DNA of 64,000 nucleotides from the human T2T-CHM13v2.0 reference genome, Homo sapiens. The stretch lies in NCBI RefSeq assembly GCF_009914755.1, contig NC_060930.1; one strand, written 5' to 3'. Positions 4,731-51,574 of the stretch are shown in pieces. A program made the translations under genes and the position numbers. The notes beneath the pieces are model-generated. The model did not search any database, was not told the DNA's origin, and saw only the letters and a list, made by a program, of their open reading frames with translations. Numbering within the stretch: the first letter of the stretch is position 1; the number at the start of each line of letters is the position of its first letter.

Positions 4731-5209
4731 AAAATAAAGTTGGCATTTGAGTGGTCAGTTTCTGCCTATCTCCGATCTCTTCCCACACAGGTGGAAGCGC
4801 AAGGAGACAGGGAGGTGGGCGCAGGGCAGTTCTGTGGCTGGGCGGCTTCCTGCTTTCTGGGCCTGTTACCTGGTGGAAGCTGATACTTTCTTTCCTGGCT
4901 TCCTCACTCCCACGACTGGGCGCCTCCACACTGCAGGTTTCCATTCTCCAGCTCTTGGTTCACCCACCGTCCTCTCCACATACACTCACAGATAAGTACA
5001 GTCTGATCCCACTATGGCAAAAACTTCTGGCTCTGCCCCCAGGGTGGTCAGACAGCTCTTCTCTCCCACCTAACTGCACAGTGTCCCAAACTGCAGGCAC
5101 ACACACACCAAGCTTTTTGAGAGGTCCCAGTGAAGGCCCACTCACGGAATGCCCACAATGCTTTCCCGAAAAAATTTCACAAATCTTTCCTTTCTCCCGC
5201 TGTCATTGA

Positions 5210-16088: not shown

Positions 16089-16139
16089 CTGACTTGCTTG
16101 TGGGCATCTTCATGTACTTCTCGTCTTTGTCTTTGGGGC
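16089..16139 (-). CDS. GABRR1: GABRR1 exon 2 (51 nt; RPQRQRREVHEDAHKQVS)
   Basis: Acceptor TTTTTTATGTTCATAGTAG|G, donor CAG|GTATGG; translation continues the rho1 frame; phase 2-2. Confidence 0.96.
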
Positions 16140-17689
16140 CTACTATGAACATAAAAAATAAAGACATTGTAGAGAAAGTCTAGGTACTCAGATCAACCAA
16201 GCACCCCTCTCCCTCCAGATCTGCTTCAAATCTATCCAGAATAAAATGTAAAAGAAGAAGAAAAAACTACGAAGATTCAATGCATTCATTTAGCCTCTTG
16301 TTGAGCATTTTCCAAGTACCTACAGTAGAAACTGGAGGGTTCATTACTAAGAAGGCCTAATTTGAAGAGGTCTGAGCTAAAATATCTCCCCCACTGGTCT
16401 ACCCGGGCGTGAAATGGACGCCATTCTTTTAGAAGGCTCTTAAGGATGTGTACATTTTAACTTTGATCCACCATAAAACCCTCATTACGGAGAGTAACAC
16501 ACTGCCAGGTGAACTGCATCACTTGAGCATCCTCGTTCTTTGGCTCATGATTTCAGCCAAATGGGCACCGACAGGAGATGAGAGAGGAGGAGGAGGAAGA
16601 AAGAGGTCAGGGTATTTACTCCTCATTCTCTCCCGGCTTTGATGCCAGGACTAGCAATGCCTGTGTTACTCTGTGATTGCTGATAATCACAGTATCTTCA
16701 ATAAGCTCCAATAATAGTTAATATTTCCCCTTCTAGTCGAGGGGTAGTCCTGGCTTCCTCCTATTCCTAGTCCTTGGGGGCATCAACGTGCCTGACTGGA
16801 TCACTGAACTCTGCCCACATCTCTTCGAATTGTCCTTTTATTCGATCATCATGAGTTAAGCCCTTTTGAAGGCAATGCTGTTTTCTGCCAGGACTCGACT
16901 GATGCACAGGGACACATCAGAACAGATGCACAAGGATTATGTCATCTGTAGAAAATGGAGCAGAGACAGGTGTGCGCTCTGCAGGCGTGGGCAGAGCTAA
17001 GACTGGGGAGTGGCATGCGCTTCAGGCGATGGGCCATCACAGTTGATGGGCAGCGTGAGGCCGAAGGACACCGGGGACAAAGTTCTCTTTGCATTCAGTC
17101 CCTTGCACAGTGTTGGATCCCCGTGGACCCTCAATACCTATTAGTTGAATGAAGGAAGGAATCAGCCCCCTACATGGGCACCTAAAAAGGGAGACAGGAG
17201 GGAATGAAAGAGGAGATTGGAATGGAAAAAAGCTTGGCCCAGCTCTTACTTTGACTTTGGGCCAGCCTGAAATGGAACCAGTCACTGATGAAAGGAGGTT
17301 TGTCAAATTCTGAGATGCCACTGCCTTTGCCTTCATGAAGCCTCGATTCTAGCCAAGAGAAGACGGATGAATAAAATACAGTTATAGTCTTTTTCATTAT
17401 TAATATTATTAAATAACTTTTTTTCCTGTTTACATGCCCATGTAAAAAAATTTAGAAAATAGATTAATCATAAAGGAGAAGATGAATATAACTCAGAAGG
17501 AACCTCTGCCATTCTGCATCTGTATTTTCTTATGATTCTTGGAGAATTATACTGTTTGAAACTTTCTTTTAAACTCAAATTATAATATATCATGGAATTT
17601 TTTTGCGTCATTGGCATCTTTTCACCATCTGAGGGTATGGTTATTAATCTTGAAATGATGTATCACACAAAACAAATAATAGGAAAATC

Positions 17690-30470: not shown

Positions 30471-30592
30471 CTGCCTTTCTTAGACATCTCGTGGACTTCT
30501 CTTCCGGGCCAGTGCACTCTGCTTTCAGTGGCCAAAACCCATCCCCACCACAAAAGAAAGATGCCAAATCTCATATTTGGGACAGCCAACAT
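30471..30592 (-). CDS. GABRR1: GABRR1 coding exon 1 (signal peptide; MLAVPNMRFGIFLLWWGWVLATESRVHWPGREVHEMSKKG+AG)
   Basis: Manual reverse-strand translation from ATG at 30592 matches the rho1 N-terminus; donor AG|GTGAGT at 30471/30470; 122 nt, phase 2. Not in the ORF track. Confidence 0.97.
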
Positions 30593-31300
30593 GGGTTTCC
30601 AAATTCAAACAGCTCTCTCCAGAAACAGCAAAAAGGAAAAGATTGTTCTTTTTCTCTCTTAAGACATTATTGGTCTGTTCATTATTAGAAGGATGTTTAC
30701 TCATGCAAAAAAAAATCAACCCACAGGATGCAATCTGGAGAGCAGGAGAAAGCAATTTCCACTAAACCTATAAATCCTCCTACGTCAGATGTCAGGGATT
30801 TTCTGAACTGAGGTTGAATTCCTGTGTCCCAGTGGAACAATTATTTTAGCCGGTCTAAATTAGTTCATCGTCAAATGCAGTAAAAATGTTGGTAAAAGTC
30901 TTATTTTCTGGTGCGTCGAATAAAAGGAAGTAAAAATGGACCAAAGCAATTTCCAAAAGGAGTAAGGCCAGAGGTTCGGAACTGCTTTCTATGTTCACGT
31001 TAATGAGCTCCTCCCTGGATCTATTTTAAGCTTACGGCCATTATTATTTGCTTTAGCTGAGGGCTGGATTTGGACAGCTTCCTGCCCCCACTTCCTGTGG
31101 CTGAATCCCTGAAACCCCAGAGCTCGGTACCTGCGTGGGCTGTCTATATGGCTGAGATTGGGAGGGCAACTGGGGAAGAGGTTTTTTTGTCTTTGTTTGG
31201 CGCAGAAACAAGTAAATTTCCTTGTCAGTTGCATTGTTCTTATCATGAACCTTGCTGCACTGTCCACATTTGAAAAATACCAGTAATAAATTAACTGTAG
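30593..31300 (-). promoter_or_regulatory. GABRR1: GABRR1 5'UTR / proximal promoter region (TSS not determinable)
   Basis: Unique non-repeat sequence directly upstream of the ATG; not a CpG island; CRE-like TGACGTAG at 30780-30787. Confidence 0.55.
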
Positions 31301-34287: not shown

Positions 34288-34649
34288 AAAAACACTATTT
34301 TTTGACAAAACTCTTCTTTTCCTTTATTGAGTATGCCAGCCTTCTCTCTCTTCTCACTCTCCTTTTTATTCCTCAGCCATCATGGCCTTCCCTACAGCAA
34401 TGCAGGGTCTCCAGGGCAATAATTTCTTCAGCAGAAGAGGGACCAGGCAATGCTTAACTCCAGCTTACCTTCTCATGGCCATCAAAAGTCTCCCTGCCCC
34501 AAGCCCTCAGAGCCAACCCAACACCACACACAAGGCACTCACTGACTGATGGGTGAACGGCAGGCAGCACACCCCAGCTGCTCCCAAACAGTGGCTGCAG
34601 GTGCTCATCAGCTGTTTCCACGTGCTCCCTGCAGCACATTTTCTAGCCA

Positions 34650-34952
34650 CAGTCAGCCCTCTGCATCCGTGGGTTTTACATCTGTAGATTCAACCAAGTG
34701 CAGATCAAAAATATCTGGGGATAGAAAAACAAAGAACACAAATTCAAAAAACTAATGTAGTATAACAACTACTTGCTAGTATTTACATTGTATTAGATAT
34801 TAGAAGTAATCTGAGATGATTTAAAGTATACAGGAGAATGTGTGTAGGTTATATGCAAATACTACCCCATTTTATGAAGGGACTTAAGCATCCATGGATT
34901 TTGGAATCCTTGGGGTCCTGGAACCAATCCCCTTGGTACCGAGGGATGACTG
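34650..34952 (-). mobile_element. MER2 (TcMar-Tigger) MITE
   Basis: TIRs CAGTCAGCCCTC / GAGGGATGACTG with TA at the right end; CCTGGAACCAATCCCC motif. Confidence 0.8.
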
Positions 34953-35169
34953 TACACGTGCACCAATTTGGCTCTGAGCTCAATGCCTAAACATAATCTC
35001 CCAGCATTGGACTGGCCCTTTCCAGGTAGGGGATAAGGGACAAATAAAAAGGCAAAGGAAAGGAATTTGATGAAACAATGACCCGAAGAGCCATTTTTCA
35101 GTTCCTGATGCAGCTGCTTCTTTACTCACTATATCGTCAAGCCTACTATTTAAGCTGCTGCTGTAATCG

Positions 35170-35565
35170 AGCCATGGAAAGATCAATAAAAAGAATAGCA
35201 TTTCTTTGTCATGGAACAGCTTAGAGGTGAGTGGTCCAGACTGAAGGGAATCTGCTCCAGGACGAAGTGCCTTTCGTCTTGTTGCCCTTTCTCAGGGTAT
35301 GGTCTTTGTGTACCTGGTTAAAGTTGGGCTGCCAGTAGGCAGAGAAGACATGAAAAGCAAGCAATTTCTGTTTAGGCAAGTGACATAGGAGCTGCACTCA
35401 TCACTTCAATTCACATTTCACTGGCAAGAAACTTGGCCTGATAGTCACTCCTAACTGTAAGGAGTCCAAGAAATGTGGTCTCTCAATGAGTCATCTTATA
35501 CCTAGCTAAAATTATATCATGATGAAAACAAAAAATAAATTTGGGGGAACAGTCAGCAATGTGCT
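35170..35565 (-). mobile_element. MLT1 (MaLR) LTR fragment
   Basis: CATCACTTC..TCACATT.CACTGGCAAGAA and CCTAACTGTAAGGAG motifs. Confidence 0.55.
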
Positions 35566-36882
35566 GAACTCTCCAATTTTTCTTCCCATCCCAAGAGTCA
35601 AGTAGCAGTGGCTTGGATCCTAAATTCGATTCCTGTAAACCCACTTTGTGGGGCTCCTTTTCCCCTTGGCCCACTGCATATCTGGAGCCAAACACTCAGA
35701 TTAGTCAGAACATCCAAATAAAACAAAGAAGGGACAAAACATCAGTCAGACCGTTAATATAAGTCCTGTCGGGAAGGCTGTGGTATTTATAGTGTGCTTC
35801 CAAAGGAACCACCCCCGTTCTGCATCTGCTCGTTTAATTCAGGTCAGATTCCTTGATCTTGAGGTTTTTTAATGCCCATCTGTAATGTGCTCTTTTTGTC
35901 ATTTCCCTGTCTCTCCTTCCCTGCTAAATTACCAATGCCATAAACCAGCTGGTGTTGGTGTCACTCTGAAAGCACTTTACTTATTAATTTACGATCATGA
36001 CAATAGGCTTTTTGGAGACTGCCCACCATCTAAAATGAAATTTTCATGATTGATGAGAGATCTAGATGGACAGGAAGCCTCAATTAGCTTGAGTTAAATT
36101 TTTTTACAGTCTAAGTTTTGTGGTCTGAACACACCCAGCCCAGCGTTCCACAACAGCTCCAGCCACAACTGTGGTGCCAAGGATCAATAGACCGTTAAAC
36201 TATGACGTTTTGATAGCAGAGGCTTAATTTTATCCACACATATTATTTTGTCATCACAAGCATCATCATGAACTTGATGTCTGACAGTGGGTAGAAATCA
36301 ATGTCCTTGTCTAGATTTTTTTTTTTAATTTCCATAGGTTTTTGGGGAACAGGTGGTATTTGGTTACATGAGTAAGTTCTTTAGTGGTAATTCGTGGGAT
36401 TTCGGTGCACCCATCACCCAAACAATATATACTGAACCCATTTTGTAGTCTTTTTATCCCTCACCTCCTTCCCACCCTTTCCCCGAGTCCTCTAAGTCCA
36501 CTGTGAAATTCTTATGCCTTTGCATCCTCATAGCTTAGCTCCCACTTATGAGTGAGGACATACAATGTTTGGTTTTCCATTCCTGAGTTACTTCACTTAG
36601 AGTAATATTCTCCAGATCCATCCAGGTTGCTGTGAATGCCATTAATTCATTCCTTTTTATGGCTGAGTAGTATTCCATTGTATATATATGCCACGGTTTC
36701 TTTATCCACTCGTTGATTGTTGGGCATTTGGGCTGGTTTCACATTTTTGCAACTGGTAATTGTGCTGCTATAAACATGCGTGTACAAGTGTCTTTTTCAT
36801 TTAATGACTTCTTTTCCTCTGGATAGATACTCAGTAGCGGGATTGCTGGATCAAATGGTAGTTTCTACTTTTAGTTCTCTAA

Positions 36883-37657
<775 letters not shown>

Positions 37658-37935
37658 GCATTGTGGTTTTGATTTGCATTTCCCTGATCATTTGTGATGT
37701 TGAGCATTTTTTCATGTTTGTTGGCCATTTGTATGTCTTCTTTTGAGAATCATCTATTCACGTCCTTAGCCCACTTTTTTATGGAATTTTTTTCTCCTGT
37801 AATTTGTTTGAGTTTGTTGTAGATTCTGGATATTAGTCCTTTGCCTGATGTATAGATTGTGAAGATTTTCTCCCACTCTGTGGGTTGTCTGTTTACTCTG
37901 CTGAGTGTTCCTTTTGCTGTGCAGAAGCTCTTTAG

Positions 37936-38344
<409 letters not shown>

Positions 38345-38745
38345 ATCTTCTAGAATTTTTACAGTTTCAGGTCTTAGATTTAAGTCCTTGATACATTTTG
38401 AGTTGATTTTTATATAAGGTGAGTGATGAGAATCCAGTTTCATTCTCTTGCGTGTGGCTTGCCAATTATCCCAGCACCATTTGTTGAATAGGGTGTACTT
38501 TCCCCACTTTATGTTTCTGTTTGCTTTTTTTTTTTTTTTAATTATACTTTAAGTTTTAGGGTACATGTGCACATTGTGCAGGTTAGTTACATATGTATAC
38601 ATGTGCCATGCTGGTGCGCTGCACCCACTAACTCGTCATCTAGCATTAGGTATATCTCCCAATGCTATCCCTCCCCCCTCCCCCCACCCCACCACAGTCC
38701 CCAGAGCGTGATATTCCCCTTCCTGTGTCCCTGTGATCTCATTGT

Positions 38746-42570
<3,825 letters not shown>

Positions 42571-42633
42571 TATGATGTTAGCTGGTGATTTTGCTCGTTA
42601 GTTGACACAGTTTCTTCCTAGTCTCGATGGTCT

Positions 42634-43650
42634 TTACATTTTGGCATGATTTTGCAGCAGCTGGTACCGGTTGTTCCTTTCCATGTTTAGCGCTTCCTTC
42701 AGGAGCTCTTTTAGGGCAGGCCTGGTGGTGACAAAATCTCTCAGCATTTGCTTGTCTGTAAAGTATTTTATTTCTCCTTCACTTATGAAGCTTAGTTTGG
42801 CTGGATATGAAATTCTGCACTGAAAATTCTTTTCTTTAAGAATGTTGAATATTGGCCCCCACTCTCTTCTGGCTTGTAGGGTTTCTGCCGAGAGATCCGC
42901 TGTTAGTCTGATGGGCTTCCCTTTGAGGGTAACCCGACCTTTCTCTCTGGCTGCCCTTAACATTTTTTCCTTCATTTCAACTTTGGTGAATCTGACAATT
43001 ATGTGTCTTGGAGTTGCTCTTCTCGAGGAGTATCTTTGTGGCATTCTCTGTATTTCCTGAATCTGAACGTTGGCCTGCCTTGCTAGATTGGGGAAGTTCT
43101 CCTGGATAATATCCTGCAGAGTGTTTTCCAACTTGGTTCCATTCTCCCCATCACTGTCAGGTACACCAATCAGACGTAGATTTGGTCTTTTCACATAGTC
43201 CCATATTTCTTGGAGGCTTTGCTCATTTCTTTTTATTCTTTTTTCTCTAAACTTCCCTTCTTGCTTCATTTCATTCATTTCATCTTCCATTGCTGATACC
43301 CTTTCTTCCAGTTGATCGCATCGGCTCCTGAGGCTTCTGCATTCCTCACGTAGTTCTCGAGCCTTGGTTTTCAGCTCCATCAGCTCCTTTAAGCACTTCT
43401 CTGTATTGGTTATTCTAGTTATACATTCTTCTAAATTTTTTTCAAAGTTTTCAACTTCTTTGCCTTTGGTTTGAATGTCCTCCCGTAGCTCAGAGTAATT
43501 TGATCATCTGAAGCCTTCTTCTCTCAGCTCGTCAAAGTCATTCTCCATCCAGCTTTGTTCTGTTGCTGGTGAGGAACTGCGTTCCTTTGGAGGAGGAGAG
43601 GCGCTCTGCGTTTTAGAGTTTCCAGTTTTTCTGTTCTGTTTTTTCCCCAT
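42634..43650 (-). pseudogene. L1 ORF1 (338 codons) with premature stop at codon 49
   Basis: ATGGGGAAAAAACAG at 43650; CGA>TGA at 43504-43506; remainder open (ORF 42634..43380). Confidence 0.92.
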
Positions 43651-44554
43651 CTTTGTGGTTTTATCTACTTTTGGTCTTTGATGATGGTGATGTACAGATG
43701 GGTTTTCGGTGTGGATGTCCTTTCTGTTTGTTAGTTTTCCTTCTAACAGACAGGACCCTCAGCTGCAGGTCTGTTGGAATACCCTGCCTTGTGAGGTGTC
43801 AGTGTGCCCCTGCCTGGGGGTGCCTCCCAGTTAGGCTGCTCGGGGGTCAGGGGTCAGGGACCCGCTTGAGGAGGCAGTCTGCCGGTTCTCAGATCTCCAG
43901 CTGCGTGCTGGGAGAACCACTGCTCTCTTCAAAGCTGTCAGACAGGGACATTTAAGTCTGCAGAGGTTACTGCTGTCTTTTTGTTTGTCTGTGCCCTGCC
44001 CCCAGAGGTGGAGCCTACAGTGGCAGGCAGGCCTCCTTGAGCTGTGGTGGGCTCCACCCAGTTCGAGCTTCCCAGCTGCTTTGTTTACCTAAGCAAGCCT
44101 GGGCAATGGCGGGCGCCCCTCCCCCAGCCTCGCTGCCGCCTTGCAGTTTGATCTCAGACTGCTGTGCTAGCAATCAGCGAGATTCCATGGGCGTAGGACC
44201 CTCCGAGCCAGGTGTGGGATATAGTCTCGTGGTGCGCCGTTTTTTAAGCCGGTCTGAAAAGCGCAATATTCGGGTGGGAGTGACCCGATTTTCCAGGTGC
44301 GTCCATCACCCCTTTCTTTGACTCGGAAAGGGAACTCCCTGACCCCTTGCGCTTCCCAGGTGAGGCAATGCCTCGCCCTGCTTCGGCTCGTGCACGGTGC
44401 GCGCACCCACTGGCCTGCGCCCACTGTCTGGCACTCCCTAGAGAGATGAACCCGGTACCTCAGATGGAAATGCAGAAATCACCCGTCTTCTGCGTCGCTC
44501 ACGCTGGGAGCTGTAGACGGGAGCTGTTCCTATTCGGCCATCTTGGCTCCTCCC
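43651..44554 (-). promoter_or_regulatory. L1 5'UTR: internal sense promoter (YY1 site 44536-44545) and antisense promoter; CpG-rich
   Basis: Intact CAAGATGGCC; many retained CpGs at 44050-44554; +97 donor TGAG|GTACCG at 44459/44458. Confidence 0.8.
44106..44321 (+). CDS. L1 ORF0 (71 aa, antisense in the 5'UTR), intact
   Basis: MAGAPPPASLPPCSLISDCCASNQRDSMGVGPSEPGVGYSLVVRRFLSRSEKRNIRVGVTRFSRCVHHPFL* within track ORF 44037..44321. Confidence 0.85.
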   Translation: MAGAPPPASLPPCSLISDCCASNQRDSMGVGPSEPGVGYSLVVRRFLSRSEKRNIRVGVTRFSRCVHHPFL

Positions 44555-46880
44555 TACAAGGGAATCTTTCCTTTTGTTTGCTTTTGCAAAAATCAGTTGG
44601 CTGTAAGTATTTGGGTTTATTTCTGGGTTCTCTATTCTGTTTCATTGGTCTATGTGCCTATTTTTATACCAGTACCATGCTGTTTTGGTGACTATGGCCT
44701 TATAATATAGTTTGAAGTCAGGTAATGTGATGCCTCCAGATGTTCTTTTTGCTTGGTCTTGCTTTGCACATGTGGGCTCTTATTTGGTTCCATATGAATT
44801 TTAGGATTGGTTTTTCTAGTTCTGTGAAGAATGATGGTGATATTTTGATGGGATTTGCATTGAATTTGTAGATTGCTTTTGGCAGTATGGTCATTTTCAC
44901 AATATAGATTCTACCCATCAATGAGCATGGGTTGTATTTCCGTTTGTTTGTATTGTCTATGATTTCTTTCAGTGGTGTTTTGTAGTTTTCCTTGTAGAGG
45001 TCTTTCACCTCCTTGGTTAGGTATATTCCTAAGTATTTTATTTTATTTTATTTCATTGCAGCTATTGTAAAAGGGGTTGAGTTCTTGATTTGATTCTCAG
45101 CTTGGTCGCTGCTGGTGTATAGCAGAGCTACTGATTTGTGCACATTAATTTTGTATCCTGAAACTTTGCTGAATTCATTTATCAGTTTTAGAAGCCTTTG
45201 GGGGAGTCTTTAGGGTTTTCTAGGTATACAATCATATCATCAGCAAACAGTGACAGTTTGACTTCCTCTTTACCATTTGGATACCCTTTATTTCTTTCTC
45301 TTGTCTGATCACTCTGGCTAGGACTTCCAGTACTATGATGAATAGAAGTGGTGAGAGTGGGTATCCTTGTCTTGTTCCAGTTCTCAGAGGAATGCTTTCA
45401 ACTTTTCCCCCATTCAATATTATGTTAGCTATGGGTTTGTCATAGATGGCTTTTATTACATTGAGGTATGTCCCTTGCATGCTGATTTTGCTGAGGGTTT
45501 TAATCATGAAGGGATGCTAGATTTTGTCAAGTGCTTTTTCTGCATCTATTGAGATGATCATGTGATTTTGTTTTTAATTCTGTTTATGTGATGTATCACA
45601 TTTATTGAGTTGCATATGTTAAACCATCCCTGGTATGATACCCACTTGTTTATGTTGGATTATCTTTTTGATATGCTGTTAGATTTGGTTAGCTAGTATT
45701 TTGTTAAGGATTTTTGCATTTATGTTCATCACGGATATTGGTGTGTAGTTTTCTTTTTTGTTATGTCCTTTCCTGGTTTTGATATTAGGGTGATACTAGC
45801 TTCATAGAATGATTTAGGGATTATTCCCTCTTTCTCTATCTTGTGGAATAGTGCCAATAGGATTGGTACCAATTCTTCTTTGAATGTCTGGTAGAATTCA
45901 GCTGTGAATCCGTCTGGACCTGGACTTTTTTTGGTTGGTATTTTTTTTTATTACCATTTCAATCCCCCTTCTTGTTATTGGTCTGTTCAGGGTTTCTAAT
46001 TCTTCCTGATTTAAGCTAGGAGGCTTGTATCTTTCCAGGAATTTATACATCTCCTCTAGGTTTTCTAGTTTATGAGTGTAAAGGTGTTCATAGTAGCCTT
46101 GAATGATGTTTTGTATTTCTGTGGTATCAGTTGTAATATCTCCCATTTCATTTCTAATTGAGCTTATTTGGATCTTCTCTCTTCTTTTCTTGGTTAATCT
46201 TGCTAATGGTCTATCAATTTTATTTATCTTCTCAAAGAATCAGCTTTTTGTTTCATTTATCTTTTGTATTTTTGTTTGTTTCCATTTCATTCAGTTCTGC
46301 TCTGATCTTGGTTATTTCTTTTCTTCTGCTGGGTTTGGGTTTGGTTTGTTCTTGTTTCTCTAGTTCCTTGAGGTGTGATTAAATTGTCTATTTGTGCTCC
46401 TTCAGACTCTTTGATGTAGGCATTTAAGGCTGTGAAGTTTCCTCTTACCACCGCCTTTGCTGTATCCCAGAGGTTTTAATATGTTGTGTCACTATTATCA
46501 TTCAGTTCAAAGAATTTTTAAATTTCCATTTTGATTTCCTTGTTGACCCAATGATCATTCAGAAGCAGGTTATTTAATTTCCATGTATTTGCATGGTTTT
46601 GAAGGTTCCTTTTGGAGTTGATTTCCAATATTATTCCACTGTGGTCTGAGACAGTACTTGATATAATTTCAATTTTCTTAAATTTGTTGAAAGTTGCTTT
46701 GTGGTCTATCATATAGTCTATCTTGGAAAATGTTTTATGTGCTGATGAATAGAATGTATATTATGCAGTTGTTGGGTAGAATGTTCTGTAAATATCCGTT
46801 AAGCCCATTTTGTTCTAGGATATAGTTTAAATCTATTGTTTCTTTGTTGGCTTTCTGTCTAATGACCTGTTGAGTGCTGT

Positions 46881-48273
46881 TGTATCCAGAATTGGTGGGT
46901 TCTTAGTCTCACTGACTTCAAGAATGAAGCTGCCCCTCGCAGTGAGTGTTACAGTTCTTAAAGGCGGCGTGTCCGGAGTTTGTTCCTTCTGATGTTCAGA
47001 TGTGTTCGGAGTTTCCTCCTTCTGGTGGGGTTCGTGGTCTCACTGGCTCAGGAGTGAAGCTGTGGACTTCCGCGGTGAGTGTTACAGCTCTTAAGGCGGC
47101 GCATCTGGAGTTGTTCCTCCCAGTGGGTTCGTGGTCTCACTGGCTTCAGGAGTGAAGCTGCAGACCTTCGCGGTGAGTGTTACAGCTCATAAAGGCAGTG
47201 TGGACCCAAAGAGTGAGCAGTAGCAAGATTTATTGCAAAGAGCGAAAGAACGAAGCTTCCACAGTGTGGAAGGGGACCCGAGCGGGTTGCCACTGCTGGC
47301 ACCAGCAGCCTGCTTTTATTCTCTTATCTGGCCCCACCCACATCCTGCTGATTTGTCCATTTTACAGAGAGCCAAGTGATCTGTTTTGACAGGGCACTGA
47401 TTGGTGCATTTACAATCCCTGAGCTAGACACAAAGGTTCTCCACGTCCCCACTAGATTAGCTAGATACACAGTGTGGACACAAAGGTTCTCTAAGTCCCC
47501 ACCAGAGTAGCTAGATACAGAGTGTCGATTGGTGCATTCACAATCCCTAAGCTAGACACAGGGTGCTGATTGGTGTGTTTACAAACCTTGAGCTAGACAC
47601 AGAGTGCCAATTGGTGTATTTACAATCCCTGAGCTAGACATAAAGGTTCTCCACCTCCCCACCAGACTCAGGAGCCCAGCTGGCTTCACCCAGTGGATCC
47701 TGCACCAGGGCTGCAGGTGGAGCTGCCTGCCAGTCCTGCACCGTGTGCCCATACTCCTCAGCCCTTGGGTGGTTGATGGGACTGGGCGCCGTGGAGCAGG
47801 GGGCGGTGCTCGTTGGGGAGGCTCGGGCCACACAGGAGCCCACGGAGGGCTGGAGAGGCTCAGGCATGGCGGGCTGCAGGTCCCAAGCCCTGCCCTGTGG
47901 GAAGGCAGCTAAGGCCCAGCGAGAAATTGAGCACAGCAGCTGCTGGCCCAGGTGCTAAGCCCCTCACTGCCTGGGGCTGGTGGGGCCAGCCGGCCGCTCC
48001 GAGTGCGGGGTCCGACAAGCCCACGCCCACCCAGAACTCACGCTGGCCAGCAAGCACCATGCGCAGCCCCAGTTCCTGCCTGTGTCTCTCCCTCCACACC
48101 TCCCCGCAAGCTGAGGGAGCCTGCTCCGGCCTTGGCCAGCCCAGAAAGGGGCTCCCACAGTGCAGCGGCAGGCTGAAGGGCTCCTCAAGTGCTGCCAAAG
48201 TGGAAGCCCAGGCAGAGGAGGCGCCGAGAGCCAGCGAGGGCTGTGAGGACTGCCAGCACGCTGTCACCTCTCA
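46881..48273 (-). mobile_element. LTR12C (HERV9/ERV9) solo LTR, 1393 bp
   Basis: Starts TGAGAGGTGACAGCGTGCTGGCAGTCCTCACAGCC and ends ...CCAATTCTGGATACA; 4-bp TSD CTGT (46877-46880, 48274-48277); ~41-bp CCAAT-containing tandem repeats at 47400-47650. Confidence 0.93.
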
Positions 48274-48596
48274 CTGTCAGTGGAGTATTGCAGTCCCCCA
48301 CTATTATTATGTTGCTGTCTATCTCATTTCTTAGGTCTAGTAGTCATTGTTCTATAAATTTGGGAGCTCCAGTGTTAGGTGCATATATATTTAGAATTGT
48401 GATATTTTCTTGTTGGACAAGGCTGTTTATCATTATGTAATGTCCCTCTTTGTCTTTTTTAACTGCTGTTGCTTTAAAGTTTGTTTTGTCTGATACAAGA
48501 ATAGCTACTGCTGCTTGCTTTTGGTGTCAATTTGCATGAAGTGTCTTTTTACACCCCTTTACCTTAAGTTTATGTGAGTCCTTATGTGTTAAGTGA

Positions 48597-48887
<291 letters not shown>

Positions 48888-51574
48888 AAGTGAGGCTCTT
48901 GAAGGCAGCAAATACTTGGTTGATGAATTTTTATCCATTCTGCAATTCTGTATCTTTTAAATGGAGCCTTTAGACCATTTATATTCAGTTAGTATTGAGA
49001 TGTGAGGTATTATTTTATTCATTGTGCTATTTGTTAGCTGAATACCTTGGTTTATTTATTTACGTATTTATTGTATTGCTTTATAGGTCCTGTGAGATTC
49101 ATGCTTTAAAGAGGTTCTGTTTTGATGTGTTTCCAGGATTTGTTTCAATATTTAGAGCTCCTTTTAGCAGTTCTTTTAGTGCTGGCTTGGTAGTGGTGAA
49201 TTCTCTCAGCATTTGTCTGTCTGAAAAAGACTGTCTCTTTCCTTCATTTATGAAGCTTAGTTTCACTGGATACAAAATTCTTGTCTGATAATTGTTTCGT
49301 TTAAGGAGGCTGAAGATAGGGCCCCAATTCATTCTAGCTTGTAGAGTTTCTGCTGAGAAATCTGCTGTTAATCTGATAGGTTTTCCTTTATAGGTTACCT
49401 GGTGCTGCTTTTGCCTCACAGCTCTTAAGATTCTTTCTCTCATCTTGACTTTAGACAACCTGATAACTATGTGCCTCTGCGATGATCTTTCTGTGATGAA
49501 TTTCCTAGGTGTTCTTTGAGCTTCTTGTATTTGGATGTCTAGATCTCTAGCAAGGCCAGGGAAGTTCTCAATTATTTCCCCAAATGTGTTCTCAAAACTT
49601 TTAGATTTCTCCTTTTCCTCAGCAATGTCAATTATTCTCAGATTTGGTCATTTAACATAATCCCAAACTTCTTGGAGGCCTTTGTTCATTTTTTAAAATT
49701 CTTTTTTCTTTGTCTTCATTGGATTGGGTTATTTCAAAAACCTTGTCTTTGAGCTCTGAAGTTCTTTCTTCTGCCTGTTCAATTCTATTGCTGAGGCTCT
49801 CCAGGGCATTTTGCATTTCTCTAAGTGTGTCCTATATTTCCTGAAGTTGTGATTTTTTTTTTATTTATGCTATCCACTTCACTGAAGATTTTTCCCTTCA
49901 TATCTTGTATCATCTTTTTGATTTTCTTAAGCTGGATTTCACCTTTTCTGGTGCCTCCTAATAATCAACTTCTGAATTCTCTTTCTGGCAATTCAGGGAT
50001 TTCTTCTTGGTTTGGATCCATTGCTGGTGGGCTAATGTGATTTTTTTTTTAGGGGGGTGTTAAAGAACCTTGTTTTGTCATATTACCAGAATTGTTTTTC
50101 TGGTTCTTTCTCATTTTGGTAGTCTCTGTCAGTGGGAAGATTTGAGGCTCAAGGCTGCTGTTCAGATTTTTTTGTCCCACGGGGTGCTCCTTTGATGTAG
50201 CACTCTCCCCCTTTTCCTAGGGATGTGGCTTCCTGAGAGCAGAACTGTAGTGATTGTTATTCTCTTCTGAATCTAGCCATCTAGCAGGGCTACCAGGCTC
50301 TGGGCTGGTACTGGGGTGTGTCTGCACAGAGTCCTGTGATGTGAACTGTCTTCAGGTCTCTCAGCCATGGATACCAGGACCTGCTCCATTGGAGGTGGCA
50401 GGGGAGTGAAATGGACTCTGTGAGGGTCCTTAGTTGTAGTTGTTTAATGCACTTGTTGTAGTTTTATGCTGGTTGGCCTCCTGCCAGGAGGTGGAACTTT
50501 CAAGAGAGCATTAGCTATGGCAGTATAGGAGAGGACCAGGTTAGGGGTGAGGCCCTGGAACTCCCAAGAGAATATAACCTTTGTCTTTGGCTTCCAGGGT
50601 GGGGAGGGAAGGCCCATCAGGAAGGGGTAGGGTTAGGCATGTCTGAGCTCAGACTCTCCCTGGGCAGGGCTTGCTGCGGCTGCTGTGGGAGATGGGAATG
50701 TGGTTCCCAGGTCAATGGAGTTATGTTCTCAGGAGGATTATGGCTGCCTCTGCTGTGTCATGCAGGTTGTCAGGGAAGCAGGGGAAAGCCAGCAGTTACA
50801 GGCCTCACCCAGCTCCTATGCAACCCAAAAGGCTGGTCTCACTCCCGCCATGCCCCCACTCCAACAGCACCAAGTTTGTTTCTAGGAAATGGTTGAACAG
50901 GGCTGAGAACTTGCCCGAGGGCACCAGCCTCCTGGCTGAGAAAGCAAACAGGGCTTTCATGCCTCCCCACCTGTGGGATCTGCACACCGGATTCATGCCC
51001 TCCCCCAAGTTCTGGCCAAGAAACTTCATGTTTGGTTGGAATTGTTACAAAGTTCAGCAGGAGTTTTCCTTCTCCCTATGATATTTTCCCAGTTCCTCTG
51101 GCAGCCCTCCCCAAGGACCCCTGTGAGACAAGGCAGAAATGGCTTCCCTGGGACCCAGAGAGCCCACAGGGCTTTTCCTACTGCTTCCTCTACCCTTGTA
51201 TTTCGCATGGCTCCTTAAATTGTCTCAGCTTCAGGTAAAGTCAAATCCTTTTTCTGTGATCTGGACCTTCAGTTTCCCCATTGAGGTTGTGTGGTTGTGG
51301 GTGGACAATTCCCCTTTCCCATTATCACAGTATGGGCACTTGCAGTATTTGGGCTCTCTCCTAGGTCTTGCAAGAGCAATCCACTTCCTTCAAAGGGTTC
51401 GTGGATTCTCTCAGCTTTACTGGTATATTCCTGCAGTAGATCTTGGAGCAAAATTTCACAGTGCAAGTCTCCACAGGCTGCTCTGTCTGTCCAAGTGAGA
51501 GCTGCAATGTGATCCTGCGTCCTATCCACCATTTTCTGCCAGGTACCTTCCATGTCTAGATTTTTTTTTTTTTT

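What the first reader, a model, noticed from the sequence alone, without database searches (positions are those of the whole stretch)
34469..48273. Stacked, co-oriented transposon promoters (LTR12C, then L1PA2 5'UTR) aimed at GABRR1: candidate primate-specific alternative transcription unit
Seen: the L1PA2 5' end (44554) lies ~14 kb upstream of the GABRR1 ATG on the same strand, with an intact YY1 site and a donor CATCTGAG|GTACCG that would cut a 96-nt first exon (44459-44554). A solo LTR12C sits 2.3 kb further upstream on the same strand. Established: L1 5'UTRs are internal Pol II promoters with a used donor near +97, and LTR12C is an NF-Y-dependent promoter activated by DNMT/HDAC inhibition and in germline/tumour cells. 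Inference: these could express the normally retina-enriched rho1 gene ectopically by splicing out the L1 body. From memory (unverified), annotated GABRR1 isoforms have a non-coding first exon at about this distance, so the isoform may be annotated without its L1 origin being appreciated.
Basis: partly seen in the sequence, partly recalled or inferred. Interest (0 to 1): 0.8.

Follow-up and report, generated by a model that had tools for sequence, protein, structure and literature searches.

The report
Known L1-driven alternative GABRR1 promoter
A young LINE-1 element upstream of the GABA receptor gene GABRR1 supplies an annotated and already published alternative first exon, while the retroviral LTR beside it has no evidence of driving the gene.

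Summary
A full-length L1PA2 with broken coding frames lies at 38527-44554 on the minus strand, sense to GABRR1. A solo LTR12C lies at 46881-48273 on the same strand, 2.3 kb further upstream.

The L1 half of the idea is correct but not new. RefSeq already starts a GABRR1 transcript at the L1 5' end (exon 44483-44555). Jönsson et al. 2019 list this L1PA2 over a GENCODE GABRR1 start site, and two later papers call GABRR1 an "L1-fusion gene" that is derepressed when DNMT1 or MORC2 is lost.

Three corrections apply:
- **Coding:** annotated canonical exon 1 has no acceptor. All 8 exon combinations I built skip the start codon. The first in-frame AUG is Met88, so the signal peptide is lost.
- **LTR12C:** nothing links it to GABRR1. 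It has no RefSeq start site and no link in print. Its promoter-proximal CCAAT box reads CAAAT, against CCAAT in 28 of 29 nearest copies.

Two elements sharing the gene's strand is not beyond chance.

Verdict: already known, low interest.

The parts
38527..44554 (-). Full-length L1PA2 (6,028 nt including the A tail), sense to GABRR1. ORF1 has one in-frame stop, ORF2 has two, and there is no frameshift.
   Evidence: The L1PA2_1983 label and its 6,024-bp span come from Jönsson 2019 Supp. Data 2.
43651..44554 (-). L1 5'UTR (904 nt), the internal promoter. It has 37 CpG, and the first 500 nt have CpG o/e 0.73. There are 9 private positions, none in the YY1 box or in either donor.
44536..44546 (-). 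YY1-type box CCAAGATGGCC (L1 nt 9-19). It contains a 3-codon upstream ORF, ATG 44541-44539.
   Evidence: The YY1 role is named in Larson 2018 and otherwise recalled.
44483..44555 (-). RefSeq alternative first exon of GABRR1 (73 nt), lying wholly in the L1 5' end. Its donor is CGG|GTGATT, with the GT at 44482-44481.
   Evidence: Hub annotation; (7 of 9 consensus matches).
44457..44458 (-). It is not the annotated one. GAG|GTACCG matches 5 of 9 consensus positions.
34543..34714 (-). Unmasked internal exon with a good acceptor (pyrimidine tract plus CAG) and donor TCA|GTGAGT. Among RefSeq exons it can only be reached from the L1 exon.
   Evidence: hub annotation.
30617..30618 (-). Unannotated candidate acceptor AG behind a pyrimidine tract, 24 nt upstream of the canonical ATG. 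It would be the only way for an L1 transcript to keep the start codon.
   Evidence: This is inference; there is no transcript evidence.
30471..30628 (-). Canonical GABRR1 exon 1 (ATG 30592-30590, signal peptide). Neither annotated form of it has an acceptor.
46881..48273 (-). Solo LTR12C (1,393 nt) with TG...CA ends and ACAG duplications at 48277-48274 and 46880-46877.
   Evidence: Features were checked against the review PMC11853044.
47427..47640 (-). U3 tandem repeats (41 nt x 3.2 and 50 nt x 2.0). CCAAT pentamers start at 47614, 47573 and 47532 inside the arrays, and a fourth starts at 47404 just 3' of them.
47289..47355 (-). LTR12C core promoter. The proximal CCAAT position reads CAAAT (47355-47351). 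AATAAAA is at 47320-47314. The start-site motif GCCAGCAGTGGC is at 47300-47289, 70% along the LTR.
46895..47192 (-). U5 repeats (3 copies, spacing 97-133 nt) carrying weak donors CCA|GTGAGA. Their last exon bases are 47141 and 47044, and they match 6 of 9 consensus positions.
44555..46880 (-). Part of an old L1 (75% identical to the young one over this stretch; 70-77% over all flank pieces) that hosts both insertions. Further pieces lie at 48274 onward and at 36000-38526.

Best explanation
A hominoid-age, full-length L1PA2 that can no longer code inserted 14 kb upstream of the GABRR1 start codon, in the gene's orientation. Its 5'UTR internal promoter starts RNA at the element's first bases.

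The RNA does not run on as L1 RNA. It is spliced from a 5'UTR donor to an unmasked exon at 34714-34543 and then to GABRR1 exon 2. The annotated donor is CGG|GT at 44483|44482, and the published G98U99 site at 44459|44458 is a possible alternative. The intron is 9.8 kb and removes the L1 body.

The promoter is silent when methylated. It fires on loss of DNMT1 and is further restrained by HUSH/MORC2.

Annotated canonical exon 1 has no acceptor, so the annotated L1-driven isoforms lack the normal AUG and signal peptide. They are most likely non-productive or encode an N-truncated protein.

What is shown: the anatomy, the splice-site sequences and the ORF consequences. What comes from the literature: the start-site overlap and the derepression. 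What is inferred: the splicing route in vivo and the lack of functional protein.
For: Sequence and anatomy:
- Canonical L1 5' end, YY1 box, 904-nt 5'UTR, two ORFs, A tail.
- The promoter is typical of its kin. CpG count is 37 against a kin median of 37 (range 32-42), and none of the 9 private bases falls in the YY1 box or a donor.

Annotation and splice sites:
- The RefSeq exon is 44483-44555, followed by GT. Exon 34543-34714 has a pyrimidine tract plus CAG acceptor.
- The annotated donor is the best consensus match in the first 300 nt of the L1 (7 of 9).
- The same donor context is present in 30 of 30 best-matching L1 5' ends.

Literature:
- Jönsson 2019 Supp. Data 2 has the row L1PA2_1983 (-) with the GABRR1 (-) start site 9 nt inside it.
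- In their differential-expression table GABRR1 has means of 1.80 against 17.0, adjusted p 0.0031, as I read the unlabelled columns.
- PMC11364546 names GABRR1 as an L1-fusion gene. It shows compounded derepression under MORC2+DNMT1 double CRISPRi, while LTR12C is unchanged.

Coding consequence:
- In 8 of 8 exon combinations the first in-frame AUG is Met88, behind 5-10 upstream AUGs.
Against: - I saw no reads.
- The 73-nt exon is not unique in the genome. 4 of 29 nearest L1 copies share its first 72 nt exactly, so assigning it to this copy rests on the splice junction and on position.
- Transcripts using the unannotated acceptor at 30618-30617 could keep the AUG, which would overturn the "non-productive" part.
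- The sense strand of the L1 body holds 13 AATAAA and 6 ATTAAA. These should cut off many transcripts before the acceptor is made.
Confidence: 0.85

Rival explanations
1. The solo LTR12C is a second, further upstream promoter. Its transcripts splice from U5 donors over the L1 into GABRR1 exons in germline, tumour or DNMTi/HDACi-treated cells.
For: - The copy keeps AATAAAA, the start-site motif GCCAGCAGTGGC at 70% of its length, and four distal CCAAT boxes. These match the features listed in the review PMC11853044.
- U5 offers donors matching 6 of 9 consensus positions.
- At family level, LTR12C and young L1s are the two repeat classes activated by DNMT1 loss, and some LTR12C copies give fusion transcripts (Jönsson 2019).
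Against: - No RefSeq transcript starts there (hub annotation).
- Searches for GABRR1 with LTR12C and with LTR12 returned only papers that mention the two separately.
- The CCAAT box inside the -70..+6 minimal promoter reads CAAAT here, against CCAAT in 28 of 29 nearest copies and CCAAG in 1. Two further private bases abut the start-site motif.
- GABRR1 behaves like HUSH/MORC2-sensitive L1s, whereas LTR12C was unchanged by adding MORC2 knock-down.
- The path holds 10 AATAAA before the L1 and 13 more inside it.
- The published L1 acceptor A620G621 is intact in this copy, which favours LTR-L1 chimeras over LTR-GABRR1 ones.
Confidence: 0.1
2. The induced GABRR1 signal comes mainly from the canonical promoter at 30628. 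The L1 (and perhaps the LTR) acts only as a demethylation-dependent enhancer or open-chromatin patch, and the L1 first exon is a minor by-product.
For: - Jönsson 2019 found H3K27ac gain on activated L1s (section 11). That mark fits enhancers as well as promoters.
- GABRR1 counts are low even after induction (mean 17).
Against: - The same section reports that Pol II and H3K27ac gains were confined to the L1 and did not appear at the genes' own start sites.
- Three papers describe the L1 as a promoter for GABRR1.
- A start site at L1 nt 1-10 with a canonical GT-AG first intron is annotated.
Confidence: 0.1
3. The L1 first exon is an artefact: a multi-mapped or template-switched piece of abundant L1 RNA joined to GABRR1 cDNA.
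For: The exon sequence recurs exactly in 4 of 29 nearest L1 copies. At least 1,577 first-look candidates resemble the L1 5' end.
Against: - The junction uses a canonical GT donor and a canonical acceptor of an exon that exists only in this transcript family.
- The L1 lies in cis, in the right orientation, at the right place.
- GABRR1 responds to L1-specific repressors.
Confidence: 0.03

Closest known systems
L1-fusion genes / young L1s as alternative promoters (Jönsson et al. 2019, Nat Commun; follow-ups PMC11364546 and bioRxiv 2025.06.11.658943)
   Same: This is the same locus. L1PA2_1983 is listed over the GABRR1 start site, GABRR1 is named as an L1-fusion gene, and it is derepressed by loss of DNMT1 and MORC2.
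   Different: Those papers give no anatomy. The passages I read do not state which donor is used, that the L1 is sense (the minority class), or that the ATG exon is skipped.
L1 antisense-promoter (ASP/ORF0) chimeric transcripts
   Same: A young L1 5'UTR supplies the first exon of a cellular gene.
   Different: Here the sense promoter is used, so the whole L1 body must be spliced out. In part 1 of Jönsson's table I counted 8 rows of this sense, 5'-end type: TIGIT, MED12L, GJB7, GABRR1, BNIP3L, NRG1, TCF24 and GDPD4. PMC10506190 nevertheless lists GABRR1 among "L1 ASP-driven genes".
Intra-L1 splicing from the G98U99 donor (SpIREs; Larson et al. 2018, after Belancio et al. 2006, the latter recalled)
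   Same: Splice donors in the first 100 nt of the L1 5'UTR are functional. G98U99 is intact here at 44458-44457.
   Different: The annotated GABRR1 exon ends 24 nt earlier at another GT. It also joins a cellular exon, not an L1-internal acceptor.
LTR12C cryptic promoters (TINATs; Brocks et al. 2017, recalled and not held) and co-opted LTR12 promoters such as GBP2 and DHRS2 (review PMC11853044)
   Same: The solo LTR12C has the family's start-site motif, TATA-like box, CCAAT-bearing U3 repeats and U5 donors, and lies in sense upstream of a gene.
   Different: No start site, junction or publication ties this copy to GABRR1, and its proximal CCAAT box is degenerate.

Membership tests
Full-length primate L1 (L1PA2) | Canonical 5' end with a YY1 box, a roughly 900-nt 5'UTR, ORF1 and ORF2, a 3'UTR and an A tail | tested here: met
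   The element is 6,028 nt with a 904-nt 5'UTR, a 338-codon ORF1 frame with one stop, and an ORF2 frame with two stops.
Full-length primate L1 (L1PA2) | Target-site duplication | tested here: inconclusive
   An 11-nt repeat AAAAGCAAACA is present (14 nt with one mismatch). The 5' copy is separated from L1 nt 1 by about 20 nt of filler.
Full-length primate L1 (L1PA2) | Subfamily assignment as L1PA2 rather than L1HS or L1PA3 | not testable with these tools
   No repeat library was available. The label comes from Jönsson 2019 Supp. Data 2. The 3'UTR trinucleotide and the short 5'UTR agree with it, but only by recall.
L1-fusion gene (L1 as alternative promoter) | An annotated gene start site inside the L1 | tested here: met
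   The RefSeq exon is 44483-44555 (hub annotation). The GENCODE v25 start site is 9 nt inside the L1.
L1-fusion gene (L1 as alternative promoter) | Reads joining the L1 to gene exons | not testable with these tools
   No expression data were available. They are reported at class level, and GABRR1 is named. The figures were not visible to me.
L1-fusion gene (L1 as alternative promoter) | Induction when L1 silencing is lifted | not testable with these tools
   This rests on the literature only: DNMT1-KO means of 1.80 against 17.0, adjusted p 0.0031, and MORC2 loss.
Solo LTR12C | TG...CA ends with a short duplication, about 41-nt U3 repeats with CCAAT, AATAAAA about 30 nt before the start site, GCCAGCAGTGGC at about 70% of the length, and U5 repeats | tested here: met
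   judged against the review. The U3 repeat number (about 5) is at the low end of the 5-17 range.
LTR12C-driven gene promoter | Intact minimal promoter (-70 to +6) including the proximal CCAAT | tested here: not met
   The pentamer reads CAAAT at 47355-47351. Among the nearest copies, 28 of 29 read CCAAT and 1 reads CCAAG.
LTR12C-driven gene promoter | A start site in the LTR spliced to the gene's exons | not testable with these tools
   No RefSeq start site lies there, and there is no link in print. Brocks 2017 is not held.

The most novel reading that the evidence does not exclude
The two elements form a condition-specific tandem. Where LTR12C is most active (oocyte, early embryo, testis, DNMTi+HDACi), the unannotated LTR12C fires and reads through the L1 5'UTR. 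This either yields LTR12C-GABRR1 or LTR12C-L1 chimeras, or lays down transcription-coupled methylation that sets the later state of the L1 promoter. A smaller but likelier new point is that the "GABRR1 up-regulation" reported after L1 derepression is mostly non-productive RNA lacking the start codon and signal peptide.
Probability: 0.08. Interest if true: 0.45.

Novelty: already known. Interest (0 to 1): 0.12.

Why it matters
GABRR1 is cited as a neuronal, disease-linked gene "activated" by young L1s. The anatomy worked out here says the annotated L1-driven isoforms bypass the start codon and signal peptide. RNA increases at this locus should therefore not be read as more rho1 receptor without isoform-level or protein data. 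Apart from that caution, the locus is an ordinary, already catalogued example of a sense L1 promoter. The LTR12C adds nothing demonstrable.

Tried and rejected
- **Locus-specific donor.** I suspected that the extra G making CGG|GT was a private mutation that created the donor. It is not: 30 of 30 best-matching L1 5' ends carry it. That set is biased toward copies resembling the query.
- **5' transduction.** I looked for a source locus sharing the 20-nt filler in front of the L1. None of the 36 displayed copies shares the flank. Only 40 of 316 candidates were scored, so this stays open.
- **LTR12C transcript tables.** Brocks 2017 is not held.
- **Supplements.** Those of PMC11364546 were closed. 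Those of the 2025 preprint are closed by rule.
- **Pfam scan of the spliced rho1 N-terminus.** The position of the ligand-binding domain relative to Met88 is therefore untested, and the signal-peptide statement rests on reading the hydrophobic N-terminus.
- **HDAC-inhibitor link.** The search for GABRR1 with "HDAC inhibitor" returned 8 papers. I opened one, which deals only with unrelated haematopoietic work. The other seven I saw only as listings, none of which suggested a repeat-element link.
- **No statistics on stacking.** Two co-oriented insertions have a prior of about 0.25.


Full report
**What is there**

Read on the minus strand, the sequence at 44554 begins with the canonical L1 5' end. 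It includes the YY1-type box CCAAGATGGCC at 44546-44536.

- The element runs 6,028 nt to an A tail ending near 38527.
- Its 5'UTR is 904 nt.
- ORF1 keeps its full 338-codon frame but has one in-frame stop at codon 49.
- ORF2 has two in-frame stops and no frameshift.

It is therefore a young, full-length L1 that can no longer code. Its 5'UTR is typical of its nearest relatives in the same genome. It has 37 CpG against a kin median of 37 (range 32-42). Median identity to 29 kin is 97.3%. It has 9 private positions, none in the YY1 box or at a splice donor.

It is the published G98U99 donor of the L1 5'UTR (Larson 2018, PMC5860796, passages; offset check).

The RefSeq alternative first exon is 44483-44555, however. 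It ends at a different GT, CGG|GTGATT at 44483|44482.

- That site matches the 5' splice-site consensus at 7 of 9 positions, the best in the first 300 nt of the element. G98U99 matches 5 of 9.
- I suspected that the CGGG run was a private mutation. It is not: 30 of 30 best-matching L1 5' ends have it, a set biased toward the query.
- Promoter and donor are therefore generic. Only the position of this copy is special.

**Downstream route and coding consequence**

Exon 34543-34714 is not repeat-masked. It has a strong acceptor (pyrimidine tract plus CAG) and a GTGAGT donor. Among RefSeq exons only the L1 exon lies upstream of it, so it exists only in L1-initiated transcripts (hub annotation).

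Both annotated forms of canonical exon 1 (30471-30628 and 30471-31046) lack an acceptor. I joined the annotated exons in all 8 possible orders, with or without 34543-34714, with or without 17250-17348, and with either exon-2 acceptor.

- In 8 of 8 combinations the canonical AUG (30592) is absent.
- The first AUG in the rho1 frame is Met88 (MRPGFGG...). It is preceded by 5-10 upstream AUGs, including the 3-codon ORF inside the YY1 box.
- The hydrophobic N-terminal leader seen in the canonical translation is lost.

By established knowledge of Cys-loop receptor biogenesis (recalled), a subunit without a signal peptide cannot place its ligand-binding domain outside the cell.

The only sequence-level escape is an unannotated AG at 30618-30617, behind a pyrimidine tract and 24 nt upstream of the AUG. 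No evidence for its use was available.

**Already in print**

- **Jönsson et al. 2019** (PMC6639357; I read section 11, several passages, a search of 5 supplementary files, and part 1 of 2 of Supp. Data 2). They intersected GENCODE v25 start sites with L1s. Their table lists chr6:89225263-89231287, L1PA2_1983, minus strand, with the GABRR1 minus-strand start site at 89231278. The 6,024-bp span agrees with my 6,028 nt.
- **Same paper, expression.** The row for GABRR1 in their expression table reads means of 1.80 against 17.0 with adjusted p 0.0031, as I read the unlabelled columns. The text names GABRR1 among L1-regulated genes.
- **PMC11364546** (one passage). It names GABRR1 as an L1-fusion gene whose derepression is compounded under MORC2+DNMT1 double CRISPRi, while LTR12C is unchanged by the added MORC2 knock-down.
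- **bioRxiv 10.1101/2025.06.11.658943** (one passage). [quoted passage not shown]

Sense-oriented cases are the minority but not unique. In part 1 of Jönsson's table I counted 8 rows with a full-length L1 (5.9 kb or more) on the gene's strand and the start site within 40 bp of the L1 5' end: TIGIT, MED12L, GJB7, GABRR1, BNIP3L, NRG1, TCF24 and GDPD4. Part 2 was not read.

**The LTR12C**

The solo LTR runs 48273->46881 (1,393 nt), with TG...CA ends and ACAG duplicated on both sides. It shows the family features listed in the review PMC11853044 (passages):

- 41-nt U3 repeats (3.2 copies, plus 2 copies of a 50-nt unit) and four CCAAT boxes in U3, three inside the repeat arrays and one just 3' of them;
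- AATAAAA at 47320;
- the start-site motif GCCAGCAGTGGC at 47300-47289, 70% along the LTR;
- three U5 repeats.

Its core is 92-94% identical to the nearest copies, against 97-99% for the L1 5' end, so it is the older insertion.

Several things count against it as a GABRR1 promoter.

- No RefSeq start site lies in it.
- Searches for GABRR1 with LTR12C and with LTR12 found only the papers above, which mention the two separately.
- The CCAAT box 55 nt upstream of the start-site motif, inside the -70..+6 minimal promoter, reads CAAAT here. Of the 29 nearest copies, 28 read CCAAT and 1 reads CCAAG.
- Its U5 donors match only 6 of 9 consensus positions.
- The path to GABRR1 holds 10 AATAAA before the L1 and 13 inside it.
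- The published L1 acceptor A620G621 is intact and would compete.

In its favour, LTR12C and young L1s are the two classes that DNMT1 loss activates, and some LTR12C copies give fusion transcripts. The exact AATAAAA plus start-site motif pair is kept here, as in 20 of 29 kin.

**Context and chance**

Both insertions sit in one old L1 on the same strand, 70-77% identical to the young one. The LTR lies at about old-L1 nt 2440-2453 and the L1PA2 at about nt 4738-4757. Two independent insertions both being sense to the gene has a prior of about 1 in 4. I see no evidence that the stacking is more than coincidence.

**Verdict**

The L1 promoter for GABRR1 is real, annotated and published. The LTR12C contribution is unsupported and somewhat disfavoured.

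The modest addition here is anatomical. It covers which donor is annotated, that exon 34543-34714 depends on the L1, and that annotated L1-driven isoforms cannot encode full-length rho1.

Noticed in passing
window 44555-44600 and 38500-38545 (minus strand): The L1PA2 junctions are odd. An 11-nt duplication AAAAGCAAACA flanks the insertion. About 20 nt of filler sit between its 5' copy and L1 nt 1. The filler resembles L1 ORF2 around nt 4757-4776 and matches the young L1 better than the local old L1. It could be 5' transduction or a template switch. No source locus was found among 40 scored of 316 candidates.
   Followed up: partly
window 36000-50500 (minus strand): One old L1 (70-77% identical to the L1PA2) hosts the LTR12C, the L1PA2 and three Alu elements (about 37030-38340), all in the same orientation as read on the minus strand.
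   Followed up: partly
literature, PMC10506190: A pan-cancer study lists GABRR1 among "L1 antisense-promoter-driven genes" in a lung squamous carcinoma prognostic model. At this locus the L1 over the start site is sense to GABRR1, so the antisense label looks misapplied or refers to another L1.
   Followed up: no
window 44483-44554: The L1-derived first exon is not unique in the genome. 4 of 29 nearest L1 copies share its first 72 nt (and first 96 nt) exactly, so short reads confined to exon 1 cannot be assigned to this locus.
   Followed up: yes
window 16139-16142 and 17250-17348: GABRR1 exon 2 has a tandem TAG|TAG acceptor (16142 or 16139) that adds one codon. The optional 99-nt exon 17250-17348 brings an in-frame TGA after five codons when read from the canonical AUG, so it acts as a poison exon.
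   Followed up: partly
literature, PMC12199311: GABRR1 is described as functional on haematopoietic stem and megakaryocyte progenitor cells, so expression outside the retina exists independently of any repeat-element story. LTR12 enhancers are said to bind NF-Y, GATA-2 and MZF1 in haematopoietic cells (review), but nothing links that to this copy.
   Followed up: no
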